Positions 2,168 through 62,612 of a stretch of DNA of 64,000 bases are shown here, in pieces. The position numbers and the translations under genes are program-made. The stretch lies in assembly GCF_028641065.1 (NCBI RefSeq), contig NC_073377.1:31744001-31808000 (forward strand), read 5' to 3'. The DNA comes from Leucoraja erinacea (lineage: Eukaryota). The notes beneath the pieces are model-generated. The model searched no databases. It was not told the origin of the DNA and saw only the letters and a program-made list of their open reading frames with translations. Every line of letters starts with the position of its first letter. Position 1 is the first letter of the stretch.

Positions 2168-2495
2168 TACATATTTCGCTTGGGCAACTTACAACGCAAC
2201 GGTATGAATATTGAATTCTCTAACTTCAAGTAACCCTTGCTTTCCCTAACTCTCCATTCCTCCCCCACCCTAGTTCTCTGACTAGTTTCACTGTCCTTCT
2301 GATTATTTTTATTGATTGTATGCCTTCTTGTCACCTTCTCCTCAGCTAACAATGTACCATTCTATATTTCCTTATCGTTGTCTGCTTTCTCATTCTGAAG
2401 AAGGGACTCGACCCGAAAAGTCACCCATTCTTTCTCTCCAGAGATGCTGCCTGTCCTGCTGAGTTACTCCAGCATTTTGTGTCCATCTATGGTAC
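2168..2495 (+). mobile_element. Penelope-like element 3' fragment with hammerhead-like motif
   Basis: Encodes IFRLGNLQRNGMNIEFSNFK* (cf. LIFRLGSLRPDGMNVEFSQF at the end of the 45034-45513 GIY-YIG ORF); CTGAAGAAGGGACTCGACCCGAAA at 2395-2418. Confidence 0.8.
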
Positions 2496-7519: not shown

Positions 7520-7760
7520 ATAGACACAAAATGCTGGAGTAACTCAGCAGGTCAGGCAGCATCGGCGGAGAAAAGGAATACATGACCTTTCGGGTTGAAA
7601 CCCTTCTTCAGAATGAGATCTTCCTCAGTCTGAAGAAGGGCCTCAACACAAAATGTCACCTATTCCTTTTCTCCAGATAAGCTGCTTGACCTGCTGAGTT
7701 ACTCCAGCATTTTGTGTCCATCTTTGGTGAAAACCTGCATCTGCCTTTCCTATCCTACAC
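7520..7760. mobile_element. Palindromic Penelope-derived short element (head-to-head terminal repeats)
   Basis: gacacaaaatgctggagtaactcagc...cttcttcaga / tctgaagaagg...gctgagttactccagcattttgtgtc, arms about 90 bp. Confidence 0.8.
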
Positions 7761-8942: not shown

Positions 8943-11405
8943 AAGGGCTGTCCAACTGCGACCTAATTGGCGAGTTTAGAAGAGTTTAGGGGAGTTTGAA
9001 AAAGTGTCATGTTGAAGACCTCCTTCAACCTCCTTCGACTATGTTGAAGACTAGCTTCGGGAAAATTGGACACCGAATAGTGGAGAGTGAAGACGACCTC
9101 CTTCAATCTCCTTCTATCTCTTTAAAAAAAATAAAAAATAAAAAAATAAAAGAATCTTAAGAAAGAAATTAGAAAAGCTAAAAGAAGATATGAGGTTGCT
9201 TTGGCAAGTAAGGTAAAAGTAAATCCGAAGGGTTTCTACCGCTATATTAATAGCAAAAGGATAACGAGGGATAAAATTGGTCCATTAGGGAGTCAGAGTG
9301 GACAACTATCTGCAGAGCCAAAAGAGATGGGGGAGATATTGAACAGTTTCTTTTCTTCGGTATTCACCAAGGAGAAGGATATTGAATTATGTGAGGTAAG
9401 GGAAACAAGTAGAGTAGCTATGGAAACTATGAGGATCAAAGAAGAGGAAGTACTGACACTTTTGAGAAATATAAAAGTGGATAAGTCTCCAGGTCCGGAC
9501 AGGATATTCCCTAGGACATTGAGGGAAGTTAGTGTAGAAATAGCAGGGGCTATGGCAGAAATATTTCAAATGTCATTAGAAACGGGAATAGTGCCGGAGG
9601 ATTGGCGTACTGCGCATGTTGTTCCATTGTTTAAAAAGGGGTCTAAGAGTAAACCTAGCAATTATAGACCTGTTAGTTTGACGTCAGTGGTGGGCAAATT
9701 AATGGAAAGAATACTTAGAGATAATATATATAAGTATCTGGATAAACAGGGTCTGATTAGGAACAGTCAACATGGATTTGTGCCTGGAAGGTCTTGTTTA
9801 ACTAATCTTCTTGAATTTTTTGAAGATGTTACTCGGGAAATTGATGAGGGTAACGCAGTGGATGTTGTGTATATGGACTTCAGTAAGGCCTTTGACAAGG
9901 TTCCTCATTGAAGGTTGGTTAAGAATGTTCAATGGTTGGGTATTAATGGTGGAGTAGCAAGATGGATTCAACAGTGGCTGAATGGGAGATGCCAGAGAGT
10001 AATGGTGGATGGTTGTTTGTCAGGTTGGAGGCCAGTGACGAGTGGGGTGCCACAGGGATCTGTGTTGGGTCCACTGTTGTTTGTCATGTACATCAATGAT
10101 CTGGATGATGGTGTGGTAAATTGGATTAGTAAGTATGCAAATGATACTAAGATAGGTGGGGTTGCGAGTAATGAAGTAGAGTTTCAAAGTCTACAGAGAG
10201 ATTTATGCCAGTTGGAAGAGTGGGCTGAAAGATGGCAGATGGAGTTTAATGCTGATAAGTGTGAGGTGCTACATCTTGGCAGGACAAATCAAAATAGGAC
10301 GTACATGGCAAATGGTAGGGAATTGAAGAATGTAGGTGAACAGAGGGATCTGGGAATAACTGTGCACAGTTCCCTGAAAGTGGAATCTCATGTAGATAGG
10401 GTGGTAAAGAAAGCTTTTGGTGTGCTGGCCTTTATAAATCAGAGCATTGAGTATAGAAGTTGGGATGTAATGTTAAAATTGTATAAGGCATTGGTGAGGC
10501 CAATTCTGGAGTATGGTGTACAATTTGGGTCGCCTAATTATAGGAAGGATGTCAACAAAATAGAGAGAGTACAGAGGAGATGTACTAGAATGTTGCCTGG
10601 GTTTCAGCAACTAAGTTACAGAGAAAGGTTGAACAAGTTAGGGCTTTATTCTTTGGAGCACAGAAGGTTAAGGGGGGACTTGATAGAGGTTTTTAAAATG
10701 ATGAGAGGGATAGACAGAGTTGACGTGGAAAAGCTTTTCCCACTGAGAGTAGGGAAGATTCAAACAAGGGGACATGACATGAGAATTAAGGGACTGAAGT
10801 TTAGGGGTAACATGAGGGGGAACGTCTTTACTCAGAGAGTGGTAGCTGTGTGGAATGAGCTTCCAGTGAAGGTGGTGGAGGCAGGTTCGTTTTTATCATT
10901 TAAAAATAAATTGGATAGTTATATGGATGGGAAGGGAATGAAGGGTTATGGTCTGAACGCAGGTATATGGGACTAGGGGAGATTATGTGTTCGGCACGGA
11001 CTAGAAGGGTCGAGATGGCCTGTTTCCGTGCTGTAATTGTTATCTCCCTTCGACTATGTTGCAGACTATCTTCGATTACCTTCGACTACCTTCGATTACC
11101 TTTGACTACCCTTGATTACCTACGAATAACATGCTGACCTACTACGACCTACTTCAACTAAACCTACGTGTATAAAAAAAATCAATTTTTTCCAAGGCGA
11201 CCTTTTTTTACTCGCGGGCATTTTGCAGCATGTTGAAATATACGGCATGACCTAGCTGAGGTCTCGAGTACTCGGGGACTACTCTCGAGCATGAAGGAGA
11301 GTTACAAAGACCTCCTAGGACCTCGTGTCGACCATGCTGCGAGTATGATTCGAGGGCAAACTCTTCTAAACTCGCCAAATAGGTCGCCGCAGTGGGACAG
11401 CCCCT
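8943..11405. mobile_element. PIF/Harbinger-type MITE (about 540 bp) containing a CR1 insertion
   Basis: TIRs aagggctgtccaactgcgacc / ggtcgccgcagtgggacagcccct; TSD TTA at 8940-8942 and 11406-11408. Confidence 0.85.
9121..11040 (+). pseudogene. Young 5'-truncated CR1 (HER1-like) LINE ORF2, reverse transcriptase domain
   Basis: ORFs 9201-9911 and 9915-10976 are in one frame, split by a single TGA (KVPH*RL); motifs DKSPGPD, NYRPVSL, DFSKAFD, GVPQGSVLGP, YAND (from YADD); TSD TATCTC at 9115-9120 and 11041-11046. Confidence 0.95.
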
Positions 11406-13578
11406 TTAGGATAGCCACCGACTCCTCAACCATAATACCACGGTCCTCATCTCTATTTCCTGTCCCAACTTCTGTAGTCGGCATGCATTTCTCCACAGTA
11501 CAAACAGAGGAAAGATTGAAGACCTTGCTCATCTCCTGCGGCTTTTCATATGGGTGACTGCTTTGGTTTCTGAGTTGCCCTATTCTCTCACTCTAGCTAC
11601 CCTCTTTCCCTTATTATTTTATACCTTTGGATTCTCCTCAATCTTATCTGACAGCTATCTCTTGTCCCTTTTTTTCCCCTCCTGATTTCCTTCTTATGTA
11701 TGCACCTTAGTCCCCTAAATACCTCCATGGATACATTTGATCCCAACTGCTTACACCTGACCCATGCCTCCTTATTTTTCCTGACCAGAGCCTCAATTTA
11801 TCTCATCATCCCGGCTTCCTTACTCCTGTATGGTGATACTCATACTGAACTGTATACAAACATGAATTTCAATGTACCTCAGTACATGTGACAATTAAAG
11901 TACCATACCATACCCACCAGTATTTCCCTTCACTTTAAGAGGAACATGAATGCCCCAAACTTTCAGCATCACAATTTTAAAAGCATCCCACTTTCCGGAG
12001 TCCCTTCATTCGCAAACAACCACAACTTTTGCGAGTTCCTGTCAAAGTTGGCCTTGCCCCAATTCTGAACTTTAATTCACTGACCTGCCCTGTCCTTATC
12101 CTTAACTATTTTAAAACTAATAGAACTGATAACCCATTCTTACCGTAAAGAAAATAATTGCTGGATTGTCCACATTGTAATAGATGCTCTGTATTACAAT
12201 ATTCCATACTGTATATAATGTAACATTATTTCATACTGTTATACTGTAACATTCAATGGTTATGTAAAAGCTAGTTACTGATTTATATTTGCTCCGAGTT
12301 ATAGCCATCTTTAACAGCACCACCTGAGATGTTATTAAATATTTTCTAATACTCCAAGAAAATAATATTCAATTATTTTAATTAATGCTGAAATATGAAA
12401 CCATTTTCGAAATACTCCTAAATGTTCTTTGATTGAACATCGAAAACTTCAGAATTTTCCCAATGCCAAATGTTAAGCAACTTGTCTTATAATTTGTATG
12501 TTAATCTTAACTCTTTTTTTTTCAATAACAGAGTTATATTTCCCTTTGTCCAGTTCTCGGTTACAGCCCTTGTAGGATTTTCTCATTAACCTTTTGAAAC
12601 TTGGTTTAATAAGTTCCTGAGCTGCGTGTTAAATTTAGACACATACACAAAGGGCAGCTTCCTTTTCATTCACTTCATTAAATTAAAGAAATATCATCGT
12701 TACACAACCCCAATATACCACAGAGGTTAACAAAACATAGTAAGCATTTCAACCATAAAAGTAAGTGGGTCTTATGAGCTCAATTTACATTTAACTTTAA
12801 GGCTATTCCTTGGTGCAATGTATTATTCCTGATCAGTCCTTAATGATCTCCAGGTCAAGCTCTCTTTGTATTCTGGTTTCACACCACTGGCATTTTTAAT
12901 GTCTTCTGATCCTTTGCTCTTCTGTCCTGCATTAGTTTCCACAGAATAGCTGGAAGACACAATTATCATTGAATTTAGCAAAATTGCCTCCTTTCTCTCG
13001 CCTCTTATGCTGAGCACAGCTCAGCGAAATATCCCACAATGAGCACTGTCATTCAAAATTCCAGTCAGTTGTTTTATAACACGAAGCAGGTTTTGACTAC
13101 CTATTCTCAAGCTTCCTTGGAGCTTTCCTGAAATCACATGTTTTACTGATTCATATTTGCATTACAGATTTCTGAACCAAATTGACCTATTCTCAAATTT
13201 ATTCACAGTAATTCATATGTGAAGACTTTGTGAAATAAAAATCATTTAATAGAGCTAATATTTTCTCATTCTCTGTAAAATCTCCACATAACTCATCATT
13301 TAATGGACCTATCTGCTTTTCAATACTCCATCTGCTACTTACATAGCCGAAAATAATGTTTTGGGTCCCTCTTGGTGTTATCTATATTCTGCTTCACTAA
13401 TGTGCTCACCACCTTCTCTAATACCCATTTAAGTTAAATTCAACTGTGTATTATAACTTCCCATTGATAATGATTTGGCACTCATAATTTAAAAAGTTTA
13501 TTATTTTTATTCTAGCAAATGGGAGAACAACCCTTGCAACTGAAACACAATGCAGCAAAGGCAACATGTAAGGCCTAC

Positions 13579-13709
13579 AGTGTAGGAAGGAACTGCAGAT
13601 GCGGGTTTACACTGAAGCCAGGCACAAAATGCTGGAGTAACTCTGTGGGACTGGCAGCATCTCTGGATAAAAGGAATCGGTGACATTTCTGGTCGAGACC
13701 CTTCTTCAG
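13579..13709 (-). mobile_element. 131-bp Penelope-derived short element with 13-bp TSD
   Basis: TSD atgtaaggcctac at 13566-13578 and 13710-13722; minus strand begins at CTGAAGAAGGGTCTCGACCAGAAATGTC. Confidence 0.85.
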
Positions 13710-13939
13710 ATGTAAGGCCTACCTCAAGAGTCAAGTTTCAAGATTGCTTTATTGTCTACATCAATTACATTAAAATAAAATAATTCTGGTCATTGTTGCA
13801 ACAAGCTTGGTCTGTGTCTCCATATTTATTTTAATTCAGTAACCTTGAATAGTCACTACTGGGGAGTAAATGAATGAATGAATTAATTAATACGTTTGTT
13901 GGCCAAATATTCAAATACAAGGAGTTACATACAAGCAAC

Positions 13940-14817: not shown

Positions 14818-15510
14818 AGGGCCTGTCCCACTTACGTGACCTTGGCACGCAAATTACGTGACCTTGTGGTCGCCTTGAGGCGCATGGGCATTGTGTGGCC
14901 GTGTGGGGCCGGTCCCACTGAGAAGCGTGGAGGGGTATGTAGTTGAGCGCGACATCGCGCGGGGCTCCGAAATTTTTCTAGCGAACATAATCTTTGCGCG
15001 CCAATGGCCTGTCGCGTAACTGACGGCCAAAGTGGGACAGGCCGAAGACCCTGGCGCGACACAACGTCTCACCTCCAACAGCAGCAGAAGCAGGCAAACG
15101 ATCGCCAAACTCGGCCTGGGGCTCACGGCCGTTGCAGTCCGGACCCGCTCCCACTTCTATTCCCAGAGTGGGGCTAATAAAATTGAAGATGGACACAAAA
15201 TGCAGGAGTAACTCAGCGGGACCGACAGCATCTCTGGAGAGAAGCAATGGGTGACGTTTCGGGTCATGATCCTTCTTTTCAGACTGAAGAAGAGTCTCGA
15301 CACAAAATAACCAATTCCTTCTCTCCAGAGATGCTGCCGGTCCCACTGATTTACTCCGGCATTGTGTCCATCTTCAAATGATGTCACGCGCTCCAGACGA
15401 CTGTGCGTACGCATGAAATCGCGCACGACCTTCGCGGGACCGTCGCGGCACAACGCAACCTCGAGGTCGCATAATTTGTGTGCCAAGGACACGTAAGTCA
15501 GACAGGCCAT
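14818..15510. mobile_element. PIF/Harbinger-type MITE with an internal Penelope-derived palindrome (about 15183-15378)
   Basis: About 50-bp TIRs gggcctgtcccacttacgtgaccttggcacgcaaatt / aatttgtgtgccaaggacacgtaagtcagacaggcc; TAA flanks. Confidence 0.85.
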
Positions 15511-17487: not shown

Positions 17488-18577
17488 ATCATCATCATCA
17501 AACGAGTATGACTGTCCTCTCCTCTCCATAGGATCGTCTACTTGTGGGTCTGCAGATGTCTGTAGAGGCCGATCCGCGATCTACATACCTTGGTGCAACG
17601 TGGGCAGTGGAGACTGGCGGTGGTTTGTAGTTATCGAGCCCCCACCTCTCTCTCCTTGCGGTGCTGTTGCTTTGTTTCTGTGACACGGCGTAGCTCCATT
17701 TCATGACGTGCAGCTCCTTCCTGCACGGATTTCCTCCAGGAGCACCTGTCCAGAGCAATTTGCTCCTGGTTGCTCAATGTGATGAGGAGTTTCTTCAGAC
17801 TGTTCTTGATGTTTTCCTTGAAGCATTTCTTTGGCTCGCCGGGGACCTGCCGACCTTCCTTCAGTTGAGAGAACTTCAGACTGTTCTTGATGTTGTCCTT
17901 GAAGCATTTCTTTGGCCTGCCGGGGGCCTGCCGACCTTCCTTCAGTTGAGAGAACAGGATCTGTTTAGAGAGACGTGTGTTGGACAGGCGGATGACATGA
18001 CCTGTCCCATCATGTTGGCTTCCTCCAAAACGTTGGTGCGTTTGACCTCCCAGCGGATCCTCAGAATCTTTCGTAAGGATCTTTGATGGTATTGGTCCAG
18101 GGCTCTCAGGTGCCTGCTGTAGGTGGTCCATGACCCGGCTCCATACAACAGGGTGGAGAGCTCAACGGCTCTGTAGACCAGCAGTTTTGTTTGAGTCTTT
18201 CGGTCTTGGTCTTCAAAGACTCTTTTCCTGAGTCTGGCATAGGCTCCGCTGGCACAACTCAGGTGATGGTTGACCTCAGAGTCGATGTCAGCTTTTGAGG
18301 AAAGATTGCTGGCAAGGAAGTGGTCAACGTTTTCAAGAGTGGTGTCGTCCACTTTTATAGTGGGCTGGGTAGACGGCTGGTTGGATGGAGGTTGATGTAG
18401 GATCTGGGTCTTCTTGATGTTTAGGGCTAGGACCATGGCTCTGTATGCTTTGGCAAAGACCTTCAGGACAGCCTGGAGGTCTTCTGCAGAGTGTGCTGCA
18501 ATTGCGCAGTCGTCCACGTACTGAAGCTCCATGATGGCGGTGTTATTGACTTTGCTATTGGCCTTCAACCTGTTAAG
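17488..18577 (-). pseudogene. 5'-truncated RTE-clade LINE
   Basis: ELQYVDDCAI, LALNIKKTQ, TLLYGAGSWTTY, HQRSLRKILRIRW motifs (ORFs 17942-18598 and 17631-18131); (GAT)n tail at about 17488-17499. Confidence 0.9.
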
Positions 18578-19424
18578 GCCAAGGCAATTACATTTCACAA
18601 GCAGCAGTGCTCAGTTAGTCTGTTTGTGATGATGTTGACTGAGAGACTAGATCAGATCCTCAACAGCTATGCACACAACATTCCTTTTATTTAACAAAAT
18701 GTTATGACTGATCTGAATTTAAACTAATATTTCCCACAAACGATAACTCTCACCATAACCAAATATTCTCTCAAAACTATACTGTGGCAACTGTATGTGA
18801 ACAATGTGAAAGTTTAAGTTTGGGAACAATTTGAAAGGTTTGACCCAATATTGAGTTCCTGACAAAATGTATGTGAAAAATGGGATTTCAATTCTGTTAT
18901 CCTAAAAGAGCAAGGGCCAGTTCTCTACTACATTCCACTGAGGTTAGATGACTAAGAGGATTTAGGGGGGAATTAACAGGACGACTGGGTGGGTCTCACA
19001 TTCTCGTAAACATTTACATATGATTGGTTCAAGGACATGGGCACAAAATTTAAATTTTGCAAAGATTTTAATGTTAGATTATTTTTTCCATTTTTCCCAG
19101 TTTTCACCAGGTTTGGCCTGCTCGATTTAGGACAGGAATGTGGTGGATAAACCATTCTACACCTTGTCATATTCACAAAGGAATTCACGCGAGGAATGCA
19201 ACCAGTCTTACCTGCGAAGTTGGCCATTTCATGCAAAGCTGTGCTGGTGGTATTATTGCTTTCGAATGTTTTTGCCCAAAGTTCACTGATTGACTTTATC
19301 CAAAGGTTTTCATTAATCTTTATTTGGATGCCTTATGTTTTAAATCTATCACAAGGTGATAATACTAAACTAAACAGAAACTAAAACAAAACATAAACTA
19401 AAATGTGGACTGAGAAAGATAAAA

Positions 19425-32433: not shown

Positions 32434-33239
32434 ACTTTGGGCATGGTGTTAAGGAGGCATTACCATAGTTCTGGGTCTTACATCAGCATAGTAGGTATTG
32501 CTGGTGCCACATAGTTCCAGTGATTTGTGTTGAATGGAATACTGTCTGACCAAAGAACAGAATTATGTGACCCACATTTGCAAATATGTTGTGGCAGTCA
32601 ATTTGATTTAGAACAATAGCTTTTACACAAACTCATCTCTTGAAAACATTTACCAAATGACATATTTTAACATACATGTATGTCAATATTTACTGAAAGA
32701 TTACACACTGCAAGCAATCTCTTTTAACTTTCAAAGCTTCTTTGCTGATGGGATATAATATTGGCAGTTCAACATTGCTGCAGGATCAACAACATGTCTT
32801 TCTTTTCATTTTGTATAGTAGGATCCTGAGAGAGGCAGGGGAGTGAGCAATGAGCCACAGGATTAACATTAGGTTTCAGTTTTGGTTTATTATTGTCATG
32901 TATACTGAAGTACAATGAAAGGCTTTATTTTGCATACTATTGGGCAGGTCTTTGGAGCCATGATTCCAACTGTGCAACCTGGACAACCCAAAATACATAC
33001 CCATTGTCTGCCCTGTTTACAAAAGTGGGAACTATGAATCTTGCCTTTGCAGTAAATAGAGGGATATGGATCCTGTGCAGGCCAATGGGATCAGTTTAAC
33101 TTGGCATCATCTTTGGCACAGGCATTGTGAGCTGAAGGGCCACTTCCTGTACTGAGTTGGTCTATGTTCTATGTTCTATATTCTATGTTTTATGTTCCAT
33201 GTTCTCCAAGTGTCCATAAAGGCTCAATCATAAACCTGA

Positions 33240-33455
33240 GTAGGAAGGAGCTGCAGACGCTGGTTTATACTAAAGATAGCCACAAAAATGCTGGAGTAAC
33301 TCAGCGGGTCAGGCAACATCACAGGAGAAAAGGAATAGATGACATTTCAGTTCAGAACCCTAAAGATGGGTTCTGACCTGAAACTTCACATTATTTGTCT
33401 CCAGAGATGCTGTCTGACCCACTGAGTTACTCCAATTATTTGTGTCTATCTTCAA
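33240..33455. mobile_element. Palindromic Penelope-derived short element
   Basis: Inverted arms gctggagtaactcagcgggtcaggca / tgtctgacccactgagttactcca. Confidence 0.75.
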
Positions 33456-34191
33456 TCATAAAACCGATGGTTTTTAGTCACTGAACACCATTGTGTACCC
33501 AGCACTGCCTCCTCTGTCTGCAGATATACCAGTTGGTACTTTACATTGTGCAGCCAGTTTCACACGGACATAAGCTTCTCCAGTACATCAGTGGCAAGGA
33601 GAGGACCTGCCTTCTAGTAATAAGACAGGTGTCATCATGGGATCATCACGGCAAAGTGACAGGATTTCCACACCTATGTGAAAAATCCCTGAAACCAAGA
33701 AGCAACGGAGATGATTATAAGCTTCCTTTGCATCCAGTTATTTTATTCCCTTAAAATCAGTGGTTCCTTTATGCACTACTCACTGTAGATTCTTCTCGCA
33801 TTTCATGTTCCCCTGTCCCCTACCAGTATACAACCAAGATGAGTTAACCAAATTCATCGGAGTACAAATGTCACTTTAATGCAGAGGGTGAATACCCAGG
33901 TAAGTGGATGTAACATTCATGTGCTGCAAAAGTATGGTGTTTCTCTTCTGTGTAATGCTGATCCATTTTTCACAGAAGCTTCTGATAGTCATTCTGAAGA
34001 GGAGCAATGAGAATAGTTCCAAGAAGGCAATCGAGGGATCAGGTCGCAAACTTACATGTCCCTACTTGGTAACTATTTAAAGTCTGGCATCTGGACAATC
34101 ACGGTAATGCTGCCAATGGCAGTCTAATATCTACAGACTCCTTTAGCATGATTTAATGTTAGCAACAATAGGTGGACTCATGCAGATGATT

Positions 34192-36640: not shown

Positions 36641-37328
36641 AAGTTAGCATACAGGGCTTGCATGTGGCCCATTGCTGTCTAAACCTATCCTATTCATATA
36701 TCTGCCTCCAGTCCTTTTTCTCTATTAAGGAGTCCTCGCCTCGCAGTGACGTCCCCTTCTCCCATCTCTAATATTCCCAAGACTGAAGAACGGTCCCGAC
36801 TCAAAAAGTCACCTATTTATGTTCTCCAGAGATTCTCCATGTTCTCATTGTCTGTAACACATTTTCACCTATCCCACTGCTAACAATACCCTGTTTTCTT
36901 TATCATCGTTACCTTTTTGCATATATTTTATTCATTTGTTCTATCTATATTACTAAAACTCTGATCTTGACCGTGTTGGCCAACTGTGCTGCGATTTCAG
37001 ACAGAACGCCGAACCTACAGCCATCATTTTTGGCCATCTCGCTCAGAGCCCACCTCCGCCTTACGGGTGTGGAGGATTTTCCCCATCAATGAAAAAATCA
37101 GAGACATATTAATGTTTTTTAAAAATTCACCATTCTCTCTGCTGCCCCTGCAGGAGGGAGGGGGAGGGACTATAAAACCAGGAAGTGGTGTGCCTCACTC
37201 AGTCTCTGCAAGATGGATGAAGCCAAGGATAATGTCTCTGTGAGCTCCGAAGAACACTGAACACATGTCTACACAACTGTGTGTCCCCTTAATGTGTTTG
37301 AAAATGAAAATATGGTTTGTTTCAAGTA

Positions 37329-37990
37329 AAAAGGCACTGCCTGCAAATGGTTGAATGGGTGCTTTGGCTTGAAGTTAAAATGCACTATTTACTGCAAATG
37401 ATGCCTTGGATGCTTTGGCTTGAAGTTGAAAGGCACTACTTACTGCAAATGGTGGCTTGGGTGCTTTGGCTTGAAGTTAAAAGGCACTACTTACTGCAAA
37501 TGGTGGCTTGGGTGCTCCAGCTTTAAATGAAAGGCACTACTTACTGCAAATGGTGGTTTGGGTGCTTTGGCTTGAAGTCGAAAGGCACTTAATGCAAATG
37601 GTGGCTTGGGTGCTTTGGCATTAAGTTGAAAGGCACTACTTACTGCAAATGGTGGCATAAAGTTGAAAGGCACTACTTACTGCAAATGGTGGCTTGTGTG
37701 CTTTGGCTTGAAGTTAAAAGGCACTATATACGGCAAATGGTGGCTTGGGTGCTTGGGCTTGAAGTTGAAAGGCACTACTTACTGCAAATGGTGGCTTGTG
37801 TGCTATGGCTTGAAGTTAAAAGGCACTATATACTGCAAATGGTGGCTTGGGTGCTTGGGCTTGAAGTTGAAAGGCACTACTTACTGCAAATGGTGGCTTG
37901 TGTGCTTTGGCTTGAAGTTGAAAGGCACTACTTACTGCAAATGGTGGTTTGGGTGCTATGGCTTGAAGTTAAAAGGCACTACTGCAAATG
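37329..37990 (+). repeat. 51-bp minisatellite, about 13 copies
   Basis: Unit aaaggcactacttactgcaaatggtggcttgggtgctttggcttgaagttg. Confidence 0.95.
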
Positions 37991-38001
37991 CAATTACAGT
38001 A

Positions 38002-38801
38002 CAGTTGCACAACCTTTTATCCGGAGTTCCGGAAACCGAAAAACTCCGAAAACCGGCCATTTTTTCCAGGATGTCATCTGCACACCAAAGCTCGCGTTTG
38101 GCGCCAGACTTGACCCAAAACGACCCACGGTCAACCCAGGTCTGTACTACTGTAGCGGCTGCCTCCTCCCTGGAGACCAGGGTGTCTCCCTCCATTTGTA
38201 AATCATTGCTTAAATGTTAGTCAGTTAGTTTGGAGGGCTATTATGTGAAGGGGGTGGAGGGGGTGAAGGGGTAAACTTTAATTCTTAGTCCCCTACCTGG
38301 TCGGAGAGGCGGGGAGCGGTCAATGCCTTACCGGGTCGCCGTGCTGTAAGCTTCGCAGCGCTGTGGCTGCCAACTCCCAGCTGGGGCTGTGGGCGTCTGG
38401 CTGCGGGTGGCGCCGGTTGTAGCTCCGACCCTGGCAACTCTATCCCTGGCTGCGCGGCTCCAAATCCAGCGCCGCCCGCGGCCGGACGCCCGCAGCCCCA
38501 GCTCAGCGAATGTTGGGAGTCGGCGGCGTCGCAGCGCAGGGATACCAGCGGGCAATGCCTTACCGGGTCGCCGTGCGGTAAGCTCCGGAGCGCTGTGGCC
38601 GCCGACTCCCAACATTCGCGGAGCTGTGGCTGCGGGCGTCCGGCCGCGGGTGGCGGTGGATTTGGAGCACCGCGCAGCCAGGGGTAGAGTTGCCGGGGTC
38701 GGAGCTACAACCGGCACCGCCCGCGGCCGGACGGAGCCCCCAGCTCCGCGATGTTGGGAGTCGCCGACCAGGTAGGGGACTAAGAATTAAAGTTTCCCCC
38801 T

Positions 38802-39895: not shown

Positions 39896-40373
39896 TTCAA
39901 GGAATAGTCAACTTCCAGCCCACCAGCCGTGAGTGAGCTGCCAGCAGATCAGGCTTGAGGGAATGAGCTGCCACCCCAAGAACCCATACCAGCACTCCAG
40001 AATGCCCCCCCCCCCCCCACTGGCCACCAATATTGGAATTGGTGGAGAGGTGGAAAATTGCATCGGGGGACCAGCCCTCCCGTGTGAACATGGGGCCCAA
40101 CGAGTCCCACTTAGTCTAGTATCTCTCTACATCACTATCTGATTCTTTCCTTTCCTTTTCCCCTGACTCACAGCTTGAAAAAGAGTCTTGACCCGAAACG
40201 TCACTCATTCCTTTCATCCATAGATGCTGTATGACCGCTGAGTTACTCAATCACTTTGTCTTTTTTTGTAAACCAACAACTTCAGTTCCATGTTGTTACA
40301 TTAAATGTTTGCAGGCTTGTTCTGAGGTGTAAAGAATTGGTGTTTTCTGCTTCTTGGCTGCATGTACATTAGT

Positions 40374-42160: not shown

Positions 42161-43985
42161 ATAGTAAAAGCTTCTTTAGGTATATGAAGAGGAAAATATT
42201 AGTTAGACCAAAGTTGGATCCTTGAAGACCGAAAAAGGTGAATTTATTATGGGGAACAAGGAAATGGCCGATGAGTTGAACATGCACTTTGGATCTGTCT
42301 TCACTAAGGAGGACACAAACAATCTTCCTGATATATTAGTGGCCAGAGGATCTAGGGTGACAGAGGCACTGAAGGAAATCCACATTAGGCAGGAAATGGT
42401 GTTGAATAGACTGATGGGACTGAAGGCTGATAAATCCCCAGGGCCTGACGGTCTGCATCCCAGGGTACTTAAGGAAGTGGCTCTAGAAATCGTGGATTCA
42501 TTGGTGATATTTTTCCAATGTTCTATAGACTCAGGATCAGCTCCTGTGGATTGGAGGGTAGCTAATGTTATCCCACCTTTTAAGAAAAGTGGGAGAGCAA
42601 AAAAAGGGAATTATAGACATTAGCCTGACATCGGTGGTGGGGAAGATGCTGGAATCAATAATAAAAGATGAGATAACCGAACATTTGAATAGCATAGCAG
42701 GGTCGGTCTGTGTCAGCATGCATTTACGAAGGGGAAATCATGCTTTCTTCTGGAATTTTTTTAAGGTATAACTCGGAAAATGGGCAACGGAGAGCCAGTG
42801 GATGTAGTGTACCTGGACTTTCAGAAAGCATTTGATAAGGTCCCACATAGGAGATTAGTGGGCAAAATTAGGTATTGGGGGTAGAGTGCTGACATGGGTA
42901 GAGAAGTGGTTGGCAGACAGGAAACAAAGAGTAGGGATTAACGGGTCCCTTTCAGAATGACAGGCAGTGACTAGTGGGCTACCGCAAGGTTCGGTGCTGG
43001 GACCACAGCTATTTACAATATACATCAATGATTTGGATGAAGGGATTCAAAGTAACAAGAGCAAATTTACAGATGACACAAAGCTGGGTGGCAGTGTGAA
43101 CTGTGAGAAGGATGCTATGAGAATGCAGGGTGACTTGGACAGGTTGGGGGAGTGGGCAGATGCATGGCAGATGAAGTTTAATGCGGATAAATGTGAGGTT
43201 ATCCACTTTGGTAGCAAAAACAGGAAGGCGGATTATTATCTAAATGGTGTCAAGTTGGGAAAAGGGGAAGTAGAACGTGATCTGGGGGTCCTTGTACATC
43301 AGTCTATGAAAGTAAGCATGCAGGTACAGCAGGCAGTGAAGAAAGCAAATGGCATGTTGGCCTTTATAACAAGAGGAATCGAATATAGGAGCAAAGAGGT
43401 CCTTCTGCATTTGTACAGAGCCCCAGTGAGACCACACCTGGGGTATTGTGTGCTGTTTTGGTCCCCTAATTTGAGGAAGGACATTCTTGCTATTGAGGGA
43501 GTGCAGCGTAAGTTTACAAGGTTAATTCCGGGTATGGCGGGACTGTCATATGTTGAGAGAATGGAGCAGCTGGGCTTGTACACTCTGAAGTTTAGAAGGA
43601 TGAGAGGGCATCTCATTGAAACATATAAGATTGTTAAGGGTTTGGACATGCTAGAGGCAGGAAACTTGTTCCCGAGGTTGGGGGAGTCCAGAACCAGGGG
43701 GCAACAGTGTAAGAATAAGGAGTAAGCCATTTAGAACGGAGACGAGGAAACACTTTTTCTCACAGAGAGTGGTGAGTCTGTGGAATTCTCTGCCTCGGCG
43801 GCGGAGGCAGGTTCTCTGAATGCTTTCAAGTGAGAGCTAGATAGGGCTCTTAATATAGCGATGTCAGGGGATATGGGGAGAAGGCAGGAACGGGGTACTG
43901 ATTGGGCATGATCAGCCATGATCACATTGAATGGCGGTGCTGGCTCGAAGGGCCAAATGTCCTACTCCTGCACCTATTGTCTATT
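42161..43985 (+). pseudogene. 5'-truncated CR1 LINE ORF2 with frameshifts
   Basis: ORFs 42222-42623 (DKSPGPDGLHP) and 42967-43725 (GLPQGSVLGP, KFTDD); 3' UTR with (CTATTGT) tail. Confidence 0.95.
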
Positions 43986-44827
43986 GTAGGAGGTCTTCGT
44001 AACTCTCCTTCATGCTCGAGAGTGGTCTCCACGTACTCTAGGCCTCAGCTAGGTCGTGGCACTTTTTTCAATGTTAAAAAATGCCTGCGAGTAAAAATAG
44101 GTTGCGATGGAAAAAATTAATACTTTATTTACGCATAGGTTTAGGGAAAGTAGGTCATAGTAGGTCGTAGTAGGTTGGCATGTTAGTCATAGGTAATCGT
44201 GGGTAGTCAAAGGTAATCAAAGGTAGTCGTAGATAGTCCATCATAGTCGAAGGGAGGTCGAAGTTGATTGAAAGAGGGCGTTTTCACTTTCCACTATTCG
44301 GTGTCCAATTTTTCCTGAAGTTAGAAAAGAGAGAAAAATAGAATGGTCTAAAAAAAAGAAATTCAAGAAATAATTCAGAAGGCTAAGAGAAATTAATAAA
44401 GACTCTTTAAAAATTTGAAAGTTATTTCACAGACTCGTATGTGACAGCAGATCTTAGCCAAACTAGGTACCTATGAGAATTTGTAAATCAAGTTTTGTTT
44501 TTTTCTAAAATTAGTGCATGAGGAAAAATGTTGAACTTTTTGACCTTATCATCTGCTGCACAGTAGGGGCTCTGCCACTTTACATTCCACATTTTGTCTA
44601 CCTGAAAAAGGTGCTAATTGCTAAAGTAATGCCATGAATAAGCTTTAATGAATTAATTAATTAACAAAGTAATTGACAACAATTAAATAGTCAACTAATC
44701 ATTCTGTCACCAGGCCAGCTGGTACAGTCATATTACAATCCTAGACACACACTTCACACAGCCAGTTAAGCTCCAGTTGTACAAATGAGTGCTGAGACAT
44801 CACCACCACAACAAAGCAAACACTGGA

Positions 44828-45923
44828 GGTACACAAAATTGCTGGAGAAACTCAGCGGGTGCAGCAGCATCTATGGAGCGAAGGAAATAGGCGACGTTTC
44901 GGGCCGAAACCCTTCTTCAGACTGATGGGGGGTGGGGGGGAGAAGGGAGGAAAGAGGGAGGAGGAGGAGCCCGAGGGCGGGGGGATGGGAGGAGACAGCT
45001 CGAGGGTTAAGGAAGGGGAGGAGACAGCAAGGGCTAGCAAAATTGGGAGAATTCAACATTCATGCCATCAGGACGCAAGCTGCCCAGGCGGAATATGAGG
45101 TGCTGTTCCTCCAATTTCCGGTGTTGCTCACTCTGGCAATGGAGGAGACCCAGGACAGAGAGGTTGGATTGGAAATGAGAGAGGGAGTTGAAGTGCTGAG
45201 CCACCGGGAGTTCAGGTAGGTTATTGCGGACTGAGCGGAGGTGTTCAGCGAAACGATCGCCCAACCTCCGCTTAGTCTCCCCGATGTAAATCAGCTGACA
45301 TCTAGAGCAGCAGCAGTAGATGAGGTTGGAGGAGATACAGGTGAACCTTTGTCGCACCTGGAACGACTGCTTGGGACCTTGAATGGAGTCGAGGGGGGAG
45401 GTGAAGGGACAGGTTGCAACGGAAAGTGCCCGGGGAGGGGGGGTGGTACGGGAGGGAAGGGAAGAATTGACAAGGGAGTTGCGGAGGGAGCGGTCTTTGT
45501 GGAAGACAGACATAGGGGGAGATGGGAAGATGTTGTGAGTGGTGTGGTCACGTTGGAGGTGGCGGAAATGGCGGAGGATTATGTGTTGTATTTGCCGGCT
45601 GGTGGGGTGAAAGGTGAGGACCAGGGGGACTCTGCCCTTGTTGCGAGTGCGGGGATGGGGAGAGAGAGCAGTGTTGCGTGGTATGGATGAGACCCTGGTG
45701 CGAGCCTCATCTATGGTGGCGTGGGGAATCCCCGTTCCCTGAAGAACGAGGACATTTCCGATACCCTGGTTTGGAATGTCTCATCCTGGGAACAGATGCG
45801 GCGTAGGCGGAGGAATTGGGAGTAGGGGATGGAGTCTTTACAGGAGGCGGGTGGGAAGACGTGTAATCCAGATAGCCATGTGAGTCAGTGGGTTTGTAAT
45901 GTAGCGGCGAGATGAGTCGGGAC
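44828..45923 (-). mobile_element. Young 5'-truncated Penelope-like element (RT end, GIY-YIG, hammerhead-like 3' repeat)
   Basis: HYKPTDSHGYLDYTSSHP; FTCISSNLIYCCCSRCQLIYIGETKRRLGDRFAEH; 17-bp TSD acaaagcaaacactgga at 44811-44827 and 45924-45940. Confidence 0.95.
44893..44920 (-). ncRNA. Minimal hammerhead-ribozyme-like motif (Penelope type)
   Basis: CUGAAGA-A-GGGU(UUCG)GCCC-GAAA-CG-UC: both core boxes, 4-bp stem II with UUCG loop, palindromic ACGU stem III; stem I not obvious. Confidence 0.55.
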
Positions 45924-48793
45924 ACAAAGCAAACACTGGAATGTATTTTCAGCCTGAAATCATTAGGGAAGACAGGCATCCTCTGCAACATGTGATACAA
46001 ACAAGCTGGGTGATTTTTACACCATTCCCTTGTCAACCTCATGTCTGTTCTATTACATTGTGCTACATTGGTGTTGAGATCAATCAATGATTTAATGATT
46101 CAATGACACTTTGTCACGTTCCTAGGTACAGTGAAATTCTTTCTTTGGCATACAATCCAATAAGATTATACTATAGATAAGCACAATTATAGACAGGTAC
46201 AACGGTTCAGTGAATCCACGTGAAACTAAACTAAACTAAACTAAACCAAATATTGATGTGGATTGTGATCAGTGTTACCTGGTCCATTTTTGCAACTGTC
46301 GTAGTTTCATCTGGAAATAATTGCTAACATGATTTACTCCTCGTAGCATCAATTCTGGATCACATGGTGCTAATGCGAATACAAAATGAGATCTGATTTA
46401 TATGTAATAATCTGCATTTGAAACATAATTGTAACATTTAAAATTTACTCATAGGTTTAGTCAAAGTAGGTCATAGTAGGTCGTAGTAGGTCGGCATGTT
46501 AGTCATAGGTAATCGAGGGTAGTCGAAGGTAATCAAAGGTAGTCATAGATAGTCCATCATAGTCGAAGGGAGGTCGAAGTAGATTGAAGGAGGGCGTCTT
46601 CACTTTCCACTATTCGGTGTCCAATTTTTCCTGAAGTTAGTCGTAGCTAGTCGTAGCTAGTCAAAGCTAATCTTCAACATAGTCGTAGGAGGTCGAAGGA
46701 CGTCTTCCACATATCATTTTTTAAAATTCTTCTAAACTCGGCAATTAGGTCACCCAAGTTGGACAACCCCTTAACCCAGCAAGACAGGCAGCCTCTCTGG
46801 AGAGAAGGAATGGGTGATGTTTCTGGTCGAGACCCTTCTTCAGACTCATCAGTAACAATCAGTTCTCATGCTTCTTACGACATACTGTATAGGGGGATAT
46901 TGATGTTTAGAGGGCCACTGAGAAGAAATAAGTTCTCTCAAAGTTTGATGATGGTCTGGAATACCTTGTCTTGAGAATCCATAACCTTCCAGAGGATGGC
47001 AAATGGCTGGGAACAGGAGTTAATCTGGACAAAACTTTTGGTGGCATAGAAATGATGGATCAATTGACCTTGTTCTGTGCTGAAAATTTCTGCAACTAAT
47101 CAAAGTGTCGATTTTACACTTTATTTTTCAATTTTGATCATTATAGCATCCCTGACACAACATTTAGGTGAATAATTTGTGTTATAAGCATTGCTCTCAC
47201 TATATTAGTATTAGATGCAATAGAATGTAGCCGAACCATGTCTCATTAACGTGCAAGATTTAAAAAAAACAAGTCAGGAATGAAACACCATGGATGAATT
47301 AAAAAATAAATACAACTAGCAAAATAGTTCATACTAAGCATCAACAATAAAAGAGAGAAAAATAGAATGGTCTATAAAAAAGAAATTCAAGAAATAATTC
47401 GAAAGGCAAAGAGAAATTAATAAAGACTCATTAAAAATTTAAACGTTATTTCACAGACTCGTATGTGACAGCAGATCTTAGCCAAACTAGGTACCTATGA
47501 GAATTTGTAAATCTAGATTTGGTGTTTTCTAAAATTAGTGCATGAGGAAAAATGTTGAACTTTTTGACCTTATCATCTGCTGCACAGTAGGGGCTCTGCC
47601 ACTTTACATTCCACATTTTGTCTACCTGAAAAAGGTGCTAATTGCTAAAGTAATGCCATGAATAAGCTTTAATGAATTAATTAATTAACAAAGTAATTGA
47701 CAACAATTAAATAGTCAACTAATCATTCTGTCACCAGGCCAGCTGGTACAGTCATATTACAATCCTAGACACACACTTCACACAGCCAGTTAAGCTCCTG
47801 TTGTACAAATGAGTGCTGAAACATCACCACCACAACAAAGCAAACACTGGAATGTGTTTTCAGCCTGAGATCATTAGGGAAGACAGGCATCCTCTGCAAC
47901 ATGTGATACAAACAAGCTGGGTGATTTTTACACCATTCCCTTGTCAACCTCATGTCTGTTCTATTACATTGTGCTACATTGGTGTTGAGATCAATCAATG
48001 ATTTAATGATTCAATGGCATTTTGTCACGTTCCTAGGTACAGTGAAATTCTTTCTTTGGCATACGATCCAATAAAATTATACTAAAAATAAGCACAATTA
48101 TAGACAGGTACAACGGTTCAGTGAATCCACGTGAAACTAAACTAAACTAAACTAAACTAAACCAAATATTGATGTGGATTGTGATCAGTTACCTGGTCCA
48201 TTTTTGCAACTGCCGTAGTTTCATCTGGAAATAATTGCTAACATGATTTACTCCTCGTAGCATCAATTCTGGATCACATGGTGCTAATGCGAATGCAAAA
48301 TGAGATCTGATTTATATGTAATAATCTGCATTTGAAACATAATATTAACATTTAAAATTGCATATGACTTCAGAAATGAGTGAGCTGTGGGCTCACCTCC
48401 AGTGCCCTTGGACGCTCTCTGGGGGTTCAATGGTTGGCCATGTGAGGTGCCCGGGGCATGGAGGCTGCGTGGTAGCTGTGGGAGGCGAGGGGACAGTGTG
48501 TCCGTGGGTGGAGGTGTGGTTGAAGTGGGCTGCTGGATGCCCTGCACAATCCACGGGATCATGTGGATCAGGCATCACTGGCGTCTCCACTGAGGCCGAA
48601 CGAGCGGATCAGACATGGCCTCCAGCATTATGGAGAGGTAGACCAGTGGCGAGGACACTGACAGCATCACCAGGCCAGGCCAACCCCTGCAACACTGACC
48701 CAGTGCTGCCACCAGGACAATGGGTCTTTACATGTAACAGACACATAACAGTCTGTTTGCTTCCAGCATCTGGTTTAATGAGAGTTGCGCATT

Positions 48794-49730
48794 TAAGTTC
48801 AAGTTCAAGTTCAAGTGAGTTTATTGTCATGTCTCCCTGTGTAGGACAATGAAATTCTTGCTTTGCTTAAGCACGCAGAAAATAGTAGGCATTTACTACA
48901 AAACAGATAAATGTGTCCATATACCATGATATAAATATATACACACATGAATAAATAAACTGATAAAGTGCAAATAGCAGAAAGTGGTTATTAATAATCA
49001 GAGTTTTGTCCGAGCCAGGTTTAATAGCCTGATGGCTGTGGGGAAGTAGCTATTCCTGAACCTGGCTGTTGCAGTCTTCAGGCTCCTGTACCTTCTACCT
49101 GAAGGTAGCAGGGAGATCAGTGTGTGGCCAGGATGGTGTGGATCTTTGTTGATACTGCCAGCCTTTTTGAGGCAGCGACTGCGATAAATCCCCTCGATGG
49201 AAGGAAGGTCAGAGCCGATGATGGACTGGGCAGTGTTTACTACTTTTTGTAGTCTTTTCCTCTCCAGGGTGCTCAAATTGCTGAACCAAGCCACGATGTA
49301 ACCGGTCAGCATGCTCTCTACTGTGCACCTGTAGAAGTTAGAGAGAGTCTTCCTTGACAAACCAACTCTCCGTAATCTTCTCAGGAAGTAGAGGCGCTGA
49401 TGAGCTTTTTTGATAATTGCTTTAGTGTTCTCGGACCAGGAAAGATCTTCAGAAATGTGCATGCCCAGGAATTTGAAGATCTTGACCCTTTCAACCATCG
49501 ACCCGTTGATATAAATGGGGCTGTGGGTCCCCCTCCTACTCCTTCCAAAGTCCACAATCAGTTCCTTGGTTTTGCTGGTGTTGAGGGCCAGGTTATTGCG
49601 CTGGCACCATATGGACAGTTGCTCGATCTCCCTTCTATATTCTGACTCATCCCCATCAGTGATACACCCCACAATAGTGTTGTCATCAGCGAACTTGATG
49701 ATGGAGTTCGCACTGTGGTTGGCTACGCAG
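48794..49730 (-). pseudogene. 5'-truncated Rex1/Babar LINE
   Basis: IKFADD; ORF 48998-49672 LNTSKTKELIVDF, KAHQRLYFLRRL, LLPSGRRYRS; (TTGAAC)n tail. Confidence 0.9.
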
Positions 49731-51565: not shown

Positions 51566-51782
51566 AGCACAAAATGCTGGAGGAACCCAGCAGGTCAGGC
51601 AGCATCCCTGGAGAACATGATTCGATGATGTTTCAAGTTGGAACCCTTCTTCAGACTCCTACCCAAAGTCCCACCTGAAATGTCCCCTGTCAATTTTCTC
51701 CAGGGATGCTGCCTAATCCACCGAGTTACTCTAACATGTCTTTCTTTGGTAAGCTAGCATCCACAGTTCCTTGCTTCTACAC
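51566..51782. mobile_element. Palindromic Penelope-derived short element, degraded
   Basis: Inverted arms caggcagcatccctggagaa / ttctccagggatgctgcct. Confidence 0.7.
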
Positions 51783-54142: not shown

Positions 54143-54234
54143 ACAAAAAATGCTGGAGAAACTCAGCAGGTGAGGCAGCATTTATGGAGCGAAGGAAATA
54201 GGCATCGTTTCGGGCCGAAACCCTTCTTCAAACT
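54143..54234 (-). mobile_element. Penelope-derived short element of the young subfamily
   Basis: Closely similar to 44833-44923. Confidence 0.8.
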
Positions 54235-61195: not shown

Positions 61196-61809
61196 GTGGA
61201 ATTGTTGCAGAGAATGTTGCATTATTCTTAATCATGTTTAAATCATAAATTCAAAATATTTTTCAATACAATTTGTGGTGCCTGATTTCAATATCATGTA
61301 AGTGAATATATTATTGTAAACAAAGAATAACAGAAAATATTACAGGTGAAGGTTTTCACATCCTTTCACAGTGTTACAACATATCCTGCTTAATATATTT
61401 TCCTACACTACATTCATATCTTTTGATTACTCTAATATCCAGAAACCTATCAACCTCTATTGTGAATCTGATGATGACAAAGTCTCCACAACCTTCTGGC
61501 TTTGCCAAATATTACAAAAAGGCATGGATATTTTAATAATTTTAATTAATTCAATAAGCAGTTATACTTTGAGTACTTGACATTGTAAATGTCTCCTCTT
61601 TTGTAACATTTACATTTTATTCACCTATTTTCAATCTTCAAAAATTTCAGAAATGTAACTAGCAAAATTAATTTGCCTTTGATCTTGTAAAGATTATCTG
61701 ATAAAAACAAAAGTCTGTAGACATGTTTAACAACATAGAAAAGTACATGTAGAAACTAAGAGTAGACCAGGCGCTCGTTCCACTCAGGCTTGCTAGACCT
61801 GTTGTTTGC

Positions 61810-62612
61810 TAACCATTTTAACTCCCCTTCCTATTTCATACTGACCTTTCTGTCCTGGACCTCCTCCATTATGGAGAGTGAAGCCACATACAAATTGGAG
61901 AAGTAGCATTTCATATTTTTCTTCAGTGGCTTACATCCTAACAGTTTAAACATTGAATTCTCCAATTCTAAGTAATACTTCTTACCTCCTCTCTTTTTTC
62001 TGTGCCTCCTCCATCCCAGTGCACTCCCACTATCCTGTCCCTCCTCTCCCCTACCATCCCTCCCATCCCCTTTGACCTATATCCTTCCCACTGGCATTGT
62101 ATTTAACTACTCTTCTCTCCTTATTTGACACTCTTTTGCCTCCTTTTTATCTCTAGCCTTACTCTACCCATCTGCGAATCAAACTATCCTCACCAGTATC
62201 CATCTATCAGTTTCCAGAACACGTCCTACTCACACATCTCGTTTTCAGCTTGCTCCCCTCTACTACCTCAATGCCCCACCCCCTCCACAATCAGTCTGAA
62301 GAAGGTTCTCAACACTTCCTGTGGAATTAATTGCCAGGGAAGGCTGTGGAGGCCATCAATGGATATTTTTAAGGCAGACAAATATAGATTATTGATTAGT
62401 ATGGGTGTCAGGGGTTATGAGGAGAAGGCAGGAGTATGGGGTTAGGAGGGAGAGATAGATCAGCCATGATTGAATGGCAGAATAGACATGATGGCAGAAT
62501 GGCCTAATTCTGCTCATATCACATATGAACTTATAAACATGAAGTTATGACACAAAACATCACCTCCACTGATGCTGTTTGAGCTGGTGAGTTACTCCAG
62601 CACTTTATGATT
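61810..62612 (+). mobile_element. Old Penelope 3' fragment with a CR1 tail (about 62315-62549) inserted in its hammerhead-like motif
   Basis: DLSVLDLLH...LNIEFSNSK*; ctgaagaaggttctc | CR1 tail | gacacaaaacatcacc. Confidence 0.7.

What the first reader, a model, noticed from the sequence alone, without database searches (positions are those of the whole stretch)
13566..13722. Non-coding 85-240-bp Penelope-derived mobile units carrying hammerhead-like motifs
Seen in sequence: about 10 copies of CTGAAGAAGGG-N6-CCCGAAACGTC or degraded versions (plus: 2395, 7630, 15284, 36783, 40174, 62295; minus: about 7611, 13709, 15283, 44920, 46842, 51654, 54231). The copy here is a clean 131-bp insertion with a 13-bp TSD whose 5' end is at the CUGA box; the copies near 46843 and 54233 stop within a few bases of the same point. 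Stem II varies between subfamilies while keeping pairing (GGGU-CUCG-ACCC vs GGGU-UUCG-GCCC). Established: Penelope-like elements encode minimal hammerheads in their terminal repeats. Inference: these are a non-autonomous, retrozyme/SINE-like family mobilised by the Penelope RT/GIY-YIG protein, with a preferred 5' boundary set by the RNA structure.
Basis: partly seen in the sequence, partly recalled or inferred. Interest (0 to 1): 0.7.

Follow-up and report, generated by a model that had tools for sequence, protein, structure and literature searches.

The report
Penelope stubs ending at RNA start
These very abundant 90-130 base inserts are cut-short ends of a known jumping gene (a Penelope-like element) that begin just in front of its small hammerhead ribozyme motif and not at its predicted cut, likely because the copying enzyme runs off the start of the element's own RNA, so they are probably by-products rather than a separate ribozyme element.

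Summary
In detail: a 131-bp insert with an exact 13-bp TSD, and 20 motif-bearing copies in the window. About 850,000 copies are extrapolated genome-wide from 286 in 740 kb (0 in shuffles). All four main upstream families lead into the GIY-YIG ORF end of Neptune-type Penelope-like elements, and in long elements the same stretch is the leader before the start codon. 5' ends pile up at +3 to -8 around the CUGA box (180 of 266 copies at risk, 6-18 times the rate in the flanking stretches). They do not pile up at the predicted cut (2 of 496). 3' ends fall at two sites, about +93 and +130. Head-to-head pairs can share one TSD and usually join a short arm to a tailed arm (18 of 29). There is no compensatory covariation, tandems are rare, and the focal hammerhead has a broken core pair. 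Best reading: reverse transcriptase starts inside the leader and runs off the RNA start at an initiator-like TCAGT. A modest extra-G surplus fits this; RNA reads showed no start. A separate retrozyme/SINE family is not supported. This scan reported the same stubs and reading on other genomes (162 notes, at least 16 genomes).

The parts
13579..13709 (-). Focal 131-bp solo stub: hammerhead motif, leader and tail of a Neptune-type PLE pseudo-LTR
   Evidence: related full-length stubs at 88-91% identity elsewhere in the genome
13566..13578 (.). 13-bp target-site duplication, copy at the 3' end of the stub
13710..13722 (.). 13-bp target-site duplication, copy at the 5' end; its last T equals element position -1
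13682..13709 (-). Minimal type I hammerhead core; C11.1 to A breaks the G10.1-C11.1 pair, so it is predicted impaired
13579..13617 (-). About 39-nt optional tail between the two 3' end sites (about +93 and +130)
   Evidence: 3' end histogram: 216 of 512 at +84-99, 202 of 512 at +120 or more
44828..45923 (-). 5'-truncated PLE: ORF end with GIY-YIG region (45034-45780), 113-nt pyrimidine-rich UTR, intact hammerhead (44893-44920), end at +93; 17-bp TSD at 44811-44827 and 45924-45940
   Evidence: longer relatives hit RVT_1 and, below cut-off, GIY-YIG
7523..7760 (.). Head-to-head pair: short arm 7611 (-) and tailed arm 7630 (+); no TSD found
15192..15367 (.). Head-to-head pair joined at the TTCAG-A-CTGAA palindrome
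33224..33462 (.).
51567..51737 (.). Head-to-head pair: arm 51654 (-) starts at -3, partner (+) starts near +21
46766..46850 (-). Stub starting near -7 to -3, 3' part broken
54146..54234 (-). Solo stub of the UUCG family starting at -3; weak candidate TSD of 11 bp with 1 mismatch
2170..2486 (+). Longer PLE 3' fragment with ORF-end remnant; not a short unit
40115..40259 (+). Copy extending to -59 in the UTR
36783..36842 (+). Degraded 60-bp copy
61808..62315 (+). Old PLE 3' end (ORF remnant, UTR) that breaks off inside the hammerhead at about 62315

Best explanation
The units are short copies of the leader end (pseudo-LTR) of Neptune-type Penelope-like elements, likely made when the element's reverse transcriptase starts at one of two internal sites about 93 or 130 bases into the RNA and runs off the RNA's 5' end, a predicted capped start at an initiator-like TCAGT just before the CUGA box. 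Shown here: the same stretch lies after the ORF stop and again about 155 nt before the ATG in partial tandems; there are two 3' end sites; 5' ends pile up at +3 to -8 with the peak at -3; head-to-head pairs sit inside one TSD with unequal arms. Inferred: the transcription start, the cap, priming on both strands of one break by a protein dimer (from the Anolis PLE biochemistry, PMC11167929), and that long elements mostly come from longer read-through RNA. The hammerhead would be a passenger in the stubs; its cleavage does not set their end.
For: Families: all four main upstream families lead into a GIY-YIG ORF end (7 of 56, 39 of 41, 18 of 19 and 5 of 8 copies show it within 400 nt; families 1 and 3 were enriched by an ORF-seeded search). 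L233 and L243 read ORF stop, UTR, hammerhead, tail, ATG. Hotspot: end rate 0.060-0.066 per nt at +3 to -8, against 0.007-0.009 downstream and 0.000-0.005 beyond -25 (enlarged set 180 of 266). Genome-wide, 2,968 of 13,028 young copies leave the template at -3 and 2,458 of 10,060 at -4, while an internal A is changed in only 241 against 7,602. TSD-bearing solos abut the element at -8 to 0 with 0-5 filler bases (18 of 72 solos, null 0-1; this search was limited to -8 to +1), and the unconstrained search agrees for the solo cases. (A/C)TCAGT is kept across otherwise divergent UTR families and fits the initiator consensus (recalled), with the peak at its A. Initiator or TSS in the pLTR is reported for other PLEs (PMC2377424, PMC3846280, PMC8557442; passages). 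Extra G: 49.6% G at -3 against 36.7% expected, 37.6% at -4 against 29.6%; solos 14 of 22 at -3, p=0.009. Copies that include the ORF start stop at the hotspot in 5 of 21 (L311, the query itself, dropped) against 94 of 142, p=0.0005, which argues against a purely sequence-set stall. Pairs: short plus tailed arm in 18 of 29, permutation p=0.005.
Against: No RNA evidence for a start: four raw RNA runs showed no place where many molecules begin or end. These are polyA, oligo-dT and single-cell libraries dominated by copies carried in host RNA, so this is weak. The extra G is modest. Pooled over positions in solos it is 24 of 61 against 18.5 expected (p=0.08), it is absent in inverted arms (15 of 53 against 16.6) and at -4 in solos (7 of 19, p=0.32). 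12 of 30 G-bearing loci at each position are inverted pairs where G can come from the partner arm, against 8 and 9 of 30 in the non-G sets. TSD-resolved junctions show varied filler, and only two looked like a single added G (L153, L260). The hotspot is about 10 nt wide with a shoulder at +4 to +11, and it also abuts a C-rich tract and the TCAG/CTGA palindrome. Enzymes that have already copied 1.5 kb or more may simply be more processive. Only 25 of 411 copies have an exact TSD of 10 bp or more.
Confidence: 0.6

Rival explanations
1. The stubs are ordinary 5'-truncated 3' ends. The hotspot arises because reverse transcriptase stalls at the C-rich tract or a protein bound there, or because nascent cDNAs pair at the TCAG/CTGA palindrome.
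For: The C-rich tract begins right at -7 to -8. Many inverted junctions use the palindrome. No start was seen in RNA. Most insertions suffer 5' truncation and keep one terminal repeat (bioRxiv 2026.07.22.740005, discussion).
Against: Copies that include the ORF start pass the same sequence in 16 of 21 (against family B alone p=0.004). The palindrome explains pairs but not solos (63 solos against 39 inverted arms of 141). It does not explain the G surplus.
Confidence: 0.2
2. A non-autonomous SINE- or retrozyme-like family: some stubs keep the initiator and both start sites, are transcribed on their own, and are copied again by the PLE protein.
For: Stubs greatly outnumber long copies (35 of 141 anchored copies are long). 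One old type had 0 of 7 long copies, and solos were closer to solos in 72 cases against 46 (the long set is skewed to one family). A copy of a stub would look the same as a primary stub. PLE-derived retrozymes exist.
Against: Six of seven types have long, UTR-linked counterparts and mean best identity is equal (0.895 vs 0.892). Tandems are 4 of 141. Units do not run cut to cut. Only 20 of 149 anchored copies keep a fully intact core and stems.
Confidence: 0.12
3. The pyrimidine tract plus CAG|T is a splice acceptor, and stubs are copies of spliced RNA, as the D. virilis Penelope intron ends at helix I (PMC4209133).
For: The sequence looks like an acceptor, and the D. virilis precedent exists. 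Base frequencies at -4 to -2 in solos resemble exon ends (recalled consensus).
Against: No shared upstream exon was found among solos. TSDs abut the element directly. There is no drop in conservation between -1 and -2. No splice joint into this site was among the joints shown (92 weaker joints were not shown).
Confidence: 0.05
4. Hammerhead self-cleavage makes the 5' end of the copied RNA.
For: The core is intact in family masters. One of 30 ORF-start copies (L329) begins exactly at +29.
Against: Cleavage after GUC would start copies at +29 and drop the core. Only 2 of 496 start there, and the rate at +27 to +31 equals background. Ribozyme mutants did not change insertion in vitro for the Anolis PLE.
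Confidence: 0.03

Closest known systems
Endonuclease-bearing Penelope-like elements, Neptune clade, with pseudo-LTR, inverted 5'-truncated partner and 30-40 bp tail (PMC8557442 passages; PMC3846280 passages)
   Same: RT plus C-terminal GIY-YIG with a CxxxxCxxC linker, partial tandems, head-to-head partner, tail usually at one end, solo pLTRs, TSDs of varied length
   Different: Here stubs dominate (about 850,000 extrapolated) and share a sharp 5' hotspot at an initiator-like site. I did not find such a hotspot described in the passages read.
[quoted passage not shown]
   Same: CUGANGA, extra base before G10.1, G10.1-C11.1 pair, palindromic 15.2-16.2, no loop 3; mostly single motifs or opposite-strand neighbours tied to truncated PLEs
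   Different: Helix II is 4 bp and helix I is 2 bp plus a possible 2 bp after a mismatch. There is no compensatory change within this genome. Activity was not tested.
Anolis Poseidon PLE (PAc) in vitro (Frangieh 2024, PMC11167929, parts 1-2 of 4 read)
   Same: Two adjacent internal start sites bounding the tail, both strands extended, hammerhead not needed for insertion
   Different: Different clade. There the ORF starts inside the hammerhead; here the ATG is about 155 nt downstream. The text read does not treat run-off stubs.
Non-LTR retrozymes (PMC7229834 passages; bioRxiv 10.64898/2026.07.22.740005, parts 1-3 of 5 read)
   Same: Non-coding, type I hammerhead, derived from PLE pLTRs, dispersed monomers exist
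   Different: Defined as tandem repeats (150-450 bp in PMC7229834) processed cut to cut into circular RNA. These units are dispersed or head-to-head and do not start at the cut.
Retroviral minus-strand strong-stop DNA (recalled, analogy only)
   Same: Short cDNA from an internal primer site to the capped RNA start
   Different: Here the product is primed on genomic DNA and integrated rather than transferred; no tRNA primer is involved.

Membership tests
EN+ Penelope-like element, Neptune clade | Single ORF with RT and C-terminal GIY-YIG | tested here: met
   L082 ORF: RVT_1 above cut-off (E 7e-8), GIY-YIG below cut-off (E 6e-4); L081 both below cut-off. The window fragment alone hit no Pfam family.
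EN+ Penelope-like element, Neptune clade | CX2-5CxxC linker before GIY-YIG | tested here: met
   Seen in the ORFs; defining feature from PMC8557442
EN+ Penelope-like element, Neptune clade | Placement in an RT phylogeny | not tested
   No tree was built; the clade call rests on the linker and domain order
EN+ Penelope-like element, Neptune clade | Pseudo-LTR partial tandems, inverted partner, optional tail | tested here: met
Minimal PLE hammerhead | Core CUGANGA / GAAA / UH, extra base, G10.1-C11.1, palindromic helix III | tested here: met
   Majority bases in 136 copies; 39 of 149 keep the core, 20 also keep the stems; the focal copy does not
Minimal PLE hammerhead | Compensatory covariation | tested here: not met
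   0 pairs changed on both sides in 16 rows; pairing equals the independence expectation in 136 copies. Copies decay neutrally, so the test is weak.
Minimal PLE hammerhead | Self-cleavage as a dimer | not testable with these tools
   No Rfam hammerhead hit at E up to 1; monomer MFE folds do not form the three-way junction; no end pile-up in RNA reads
Non-LTR retrozyme | Head-to-tail tandem monomers, each with a hammerhead | tested here: not met
   4 of 141 anchored copies have a direct neighbour; the 15 shown are mostly partial or chance neighbours
Non-LTR retrozyme | Unit bounded by the cleavage site; circular RNA | tested here: not met
   No start pile-up at +29; circular RNA itself could not be tested
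SINE-like non-autonomous family | Own lineages apart from the autonomous partner | tested here: inconclusive
   None evident for six of seven types; the seventh had 0 of 7 long copies; a sample only
SINE-like non-autonomous family | Own promoter active in the short copy | not testable with these tools
   Initiator-like motif only partly retained in stubs; no cap data

The most novel reading that the evidence does not exclude
Stubs that keep the initiator and both internal start sites are themselves transcribed by Pol II and re-copied by the Penelope protein. That would make a 130-nt, ribozyme-headed, self-renewing element with several hundred thousand copies, and each head-to-head pair would record one dimer copying from two start sites on opposite strands of a single break.
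Probability: 0.15. Interest if true: 0.7.

Novelty: new member of a known kind. Interest (0 to 1): 0.4.

Why it matters
How Penelope-like elements copy themselves is still poorly known. If the reading holds, hundreds of thousands of junctions record the element's transcription start, its two reverse-transcription start sites and two-strand priming, which makes the in vitro model testable in vivo. It would also explain why lone minimal hammerheads are so numerous in animal genomes without any selection for cleavage, and it warns against annotating such stubs as SINEs or retrozymes. The element class, its hammerhead, tail and inverted partners are already published, and this scan has noted the same stubs on many other genomes.

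Tried and rejected
Rfam gave no hammerhead hit. Cap G as a clean marker: the first hint (9 of 16 non-C at -4) vanished in a larger solo set (8 of 23), and only a modest surplus remains. Re-copying of the terminal bases upstream of solos was weak (CTGA 21 of 196 against 10.2, partly from short UTR remnants; TCTG p=0.03) and is not used. The script had an off-by-one index and was redone; the intact-core count was wrong and was redone. The run search listed no holder on record as RNA. Four raw RNA runs were laid on a long copy: depth is some 20- to 100-fold higher over +1 to +129, with loose ends at +1, +93-96 and +129. This mirrors the DNA boundaries of copies carried in host RNA and says nothing on the element's own start. 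The strand bias in the two single-cell runs could not be interpreted. No convincing TSD was found for window pairs 7611/7630, 15283/15284 and 51654/51671. One paper on dimer cleavage of PLE hammerheads (recalled) is not held. Supplements: PMC11167929, 3 text files without hits, and its figure of genomic coverage could not be seen; PMC4209133, file 1 not searchable; bioRxiv supplements are closed. Any of these could already show the 5' pile-up.

Full report
Observation. The focal insert is real: 131 bp at 13579-13709 on the minus strand between two identical 13-mers that occur nowhere else in the window. The motif matches 9 times at up to 3 mismatches against 0 in shuffles, and a profile finds 20 copies in the window. 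In 740 kb taken from 15 places on 15 contigs (chosen by me, not at random) there are 286 copies and none in a shuffled control. That extrapolates to roughly 850,000 in the 2.19-Gb genome. One exact 26-mer occurs 17,647 times. Positions below count from the C of CTGA as +1.

What the sequence belongs to. The copy at 44920 is the end of a 5'-truncated element with a 17-bp TSD, and its empty site survives in a local duplicate. Longer relatives encode RT and a GIY-YIG region with the cysteine linker that marks Neptune and Nematis elements (PMC8557442 passages); no tree was built. Among 411 anchored copies, the four main upstream families all lead into a GIY-YIG ORF end, and in the largest family the 5' extents run continuously from 43 to 314 nt. 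So no separate 240-bp unit was found. Two long loci read ORF stop, pyrimidine-rich UTR, ATCAG(T/C), hammerhead, tail to +131, then an ATG near +156. The unit is therefore both the end of one copy and the leader of the next, which is the pseudo-LTR.

Ends. 3' ends fall in two groups, +84-99 (216 of 512) and +120 or beyond (202 of 512), with 58 between and 36 shorter. This is the known optional tail, which in the Anolis element lies between two internal reverse-transcription start sites (PMC11167929). 5' ends were called by alignment to 66 reference copies from outside the unbiased sample. Of 267 copies with a 3' part, 255 passed 75% identity. The end rate is 0.060 per base at +3 to -8 (94 of 142 at risk), against 0.007-0.009 in the stretch from +12 to +61 and 0.003-0.005 beyond -25; stricter identity cut-offs agree. 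With incidental copies added (496 of 519 kept), 180 of 266 end there, the peak is at -3, and only 2 begin at +29, the base after the predicted cut. Genome-wide exact counts agree: 23% of young copies leave the template at -3 and 24% at -4, against 3% change at an internal A. Of 141 anchored copies outside the window, 63 are solo, 39 are arms of head-to-head pairs, 35 are long and 4 have a direct neighbour. Exact TSDs of 10 bp or more were found in 25 of 411 copies (null 0-2), about half of them enclosing a whole head-to-head pair. Among 29 pairs with both arms anchored, 18 join a short arm to a tailed arm (p=0.005).

The hammerhead. The majority sequence fits the minimal PLE hammerhead of PMC4209133. 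The family difference in stem II is U-A to U-G plus a loop change. No pair changes on both sides in 16 aligned copies, and pairing equals the independence expectation in 136 copies. Only 20 of 149 copies keep core and stems, and the focal copy has lost the G10.1-C11.1 pair. Rfam has no hit. Activity is untested.

Mechanism. I judge it most likely (0.6) that reverse transcriptase starts at +93 or +130 on an RNA that begins at the initiator-like TCAGT and runs off its end, on one strand (solo) or on both strands of one break (pair). In favour: the peak sits on the initiator A (consensus recalled), the motif is kept across divergent UTRs, and other PLEs start in the pLTR. G is in surplus before the boundary (49.6% against 36.7% at -3, 37.6% against 29.6% at -4). 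Copies that include the ORF start stop at the hotspot in only 5 of 21, against 94 of 142; these were the 30 loci returned of the 40 scored, and 24 of the 30 continue for the full 1.5 kb that could be seen. Against: the G surplus is modest and partly due to inverted partners, TSD-resolved junctions show mixed filler, four RNA runs show no start (unsuitable libraries), and the hotspot also borders a C-rich tract, a palindrome and the 5' strand of helix I. A stall (0.2), a self-renewing non-autonomous family (0.12), splicing (0.05) and cleavage (0.03) are the rivals.

Comparison with what is known. PLE hammerheads, lone and opposite-strand motifs, tails, inverted partners and solo pLTRs are published (PMC4209133 parts 1-2 of 4; PMC11167929 parts 1-2 of 4; passages of PMC8557442, PMC3846280 and PMC2377424). 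Retrozymes are tandem units (PMC7229834 passages; bioRxiv 2026.07.22.740005 parts 1-3 of 5), and these units fail that test. Six of seven sequence types have long counterparts and solos are as close to long copies as to each other, so no separate SINE-like lineage is evident in the sample. I did not find the 5' hotspot or the run-off model in seven searches, but figures and several supplements could not be seen. I noted the initiator and cap idea before looking at earlier findings. The scan holds 162 notes with those words from at least 16 genomes, and seven of the eight shown give the same reading. They are unreviewed and are not counted as support. Two of them prompted tests here: read-through of long copies and starts at the cut.

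Verdict. A new, very abundant member of a known kind. The boundary is real and informative about how PLEs copy themselves, but it is probably not set by the ribozyme and does not mark a new family. Interest 0.4.

Noticed in passing
window 47525-48212 vs 44501-46298: A local duplicate (96-99% identical) keeps the empty insertion site (47835-47851) of the PLE at 44828-45923, which fixes its ends and its 17-bp TSD.
   Followed up: yes
L329 (G000:C12:56128001-56128273): A long element whose 5' end falls exactly at +29, the base after the predicted hammerhead cut; 1 of 30, not above chance.
   Followed up: partly
L312, L318: Copies that start at -11 and -7, have an inverted partner, and end a few hundred bases into the ORF. 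They may reflect further start sites or later damage.
   Followed up: no
L233:100-760, runs X22 and X23: Single-cell reads lie about 3-6 times more on the minus strand over the unit; library orientation is unknown, and priming at A-rich stretches is possible.
   Followed up: no
upstream -5 to -15 in families 0 and 2 (e.g. L116:7133, L099:5138): CTRAC / CCTTAAC-like words just before CAG resemble splice branch sites (recalled consensus) but lie very close to the AG.
   Followed up: partly
L233:440-447: The start codon context reads AAG|GTATG, like a splice donor, in this copy but not in L243 or L250.
   Followed up: no
window 9150-10976, 42203-43725, 17942-18610, 48998-49774, 52031-53551: Fragments of other non-LTR retrotransposons (RVT_1 hits in four of the tested ORFs; 42203-43725 not scanned). 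The repeat mix recalls cartilaginous fishes (recalled, not tested).
   Followed up: no
window 37593-38220: A tandem repeat that reads as open frames in two phases; probably a minisatellite.
   Followed up: no
L081:404-2805: Broken frames resembling an LTR retroelement (gag-like and integrase-like, by eye) beside the PLE.
   Followed up: no
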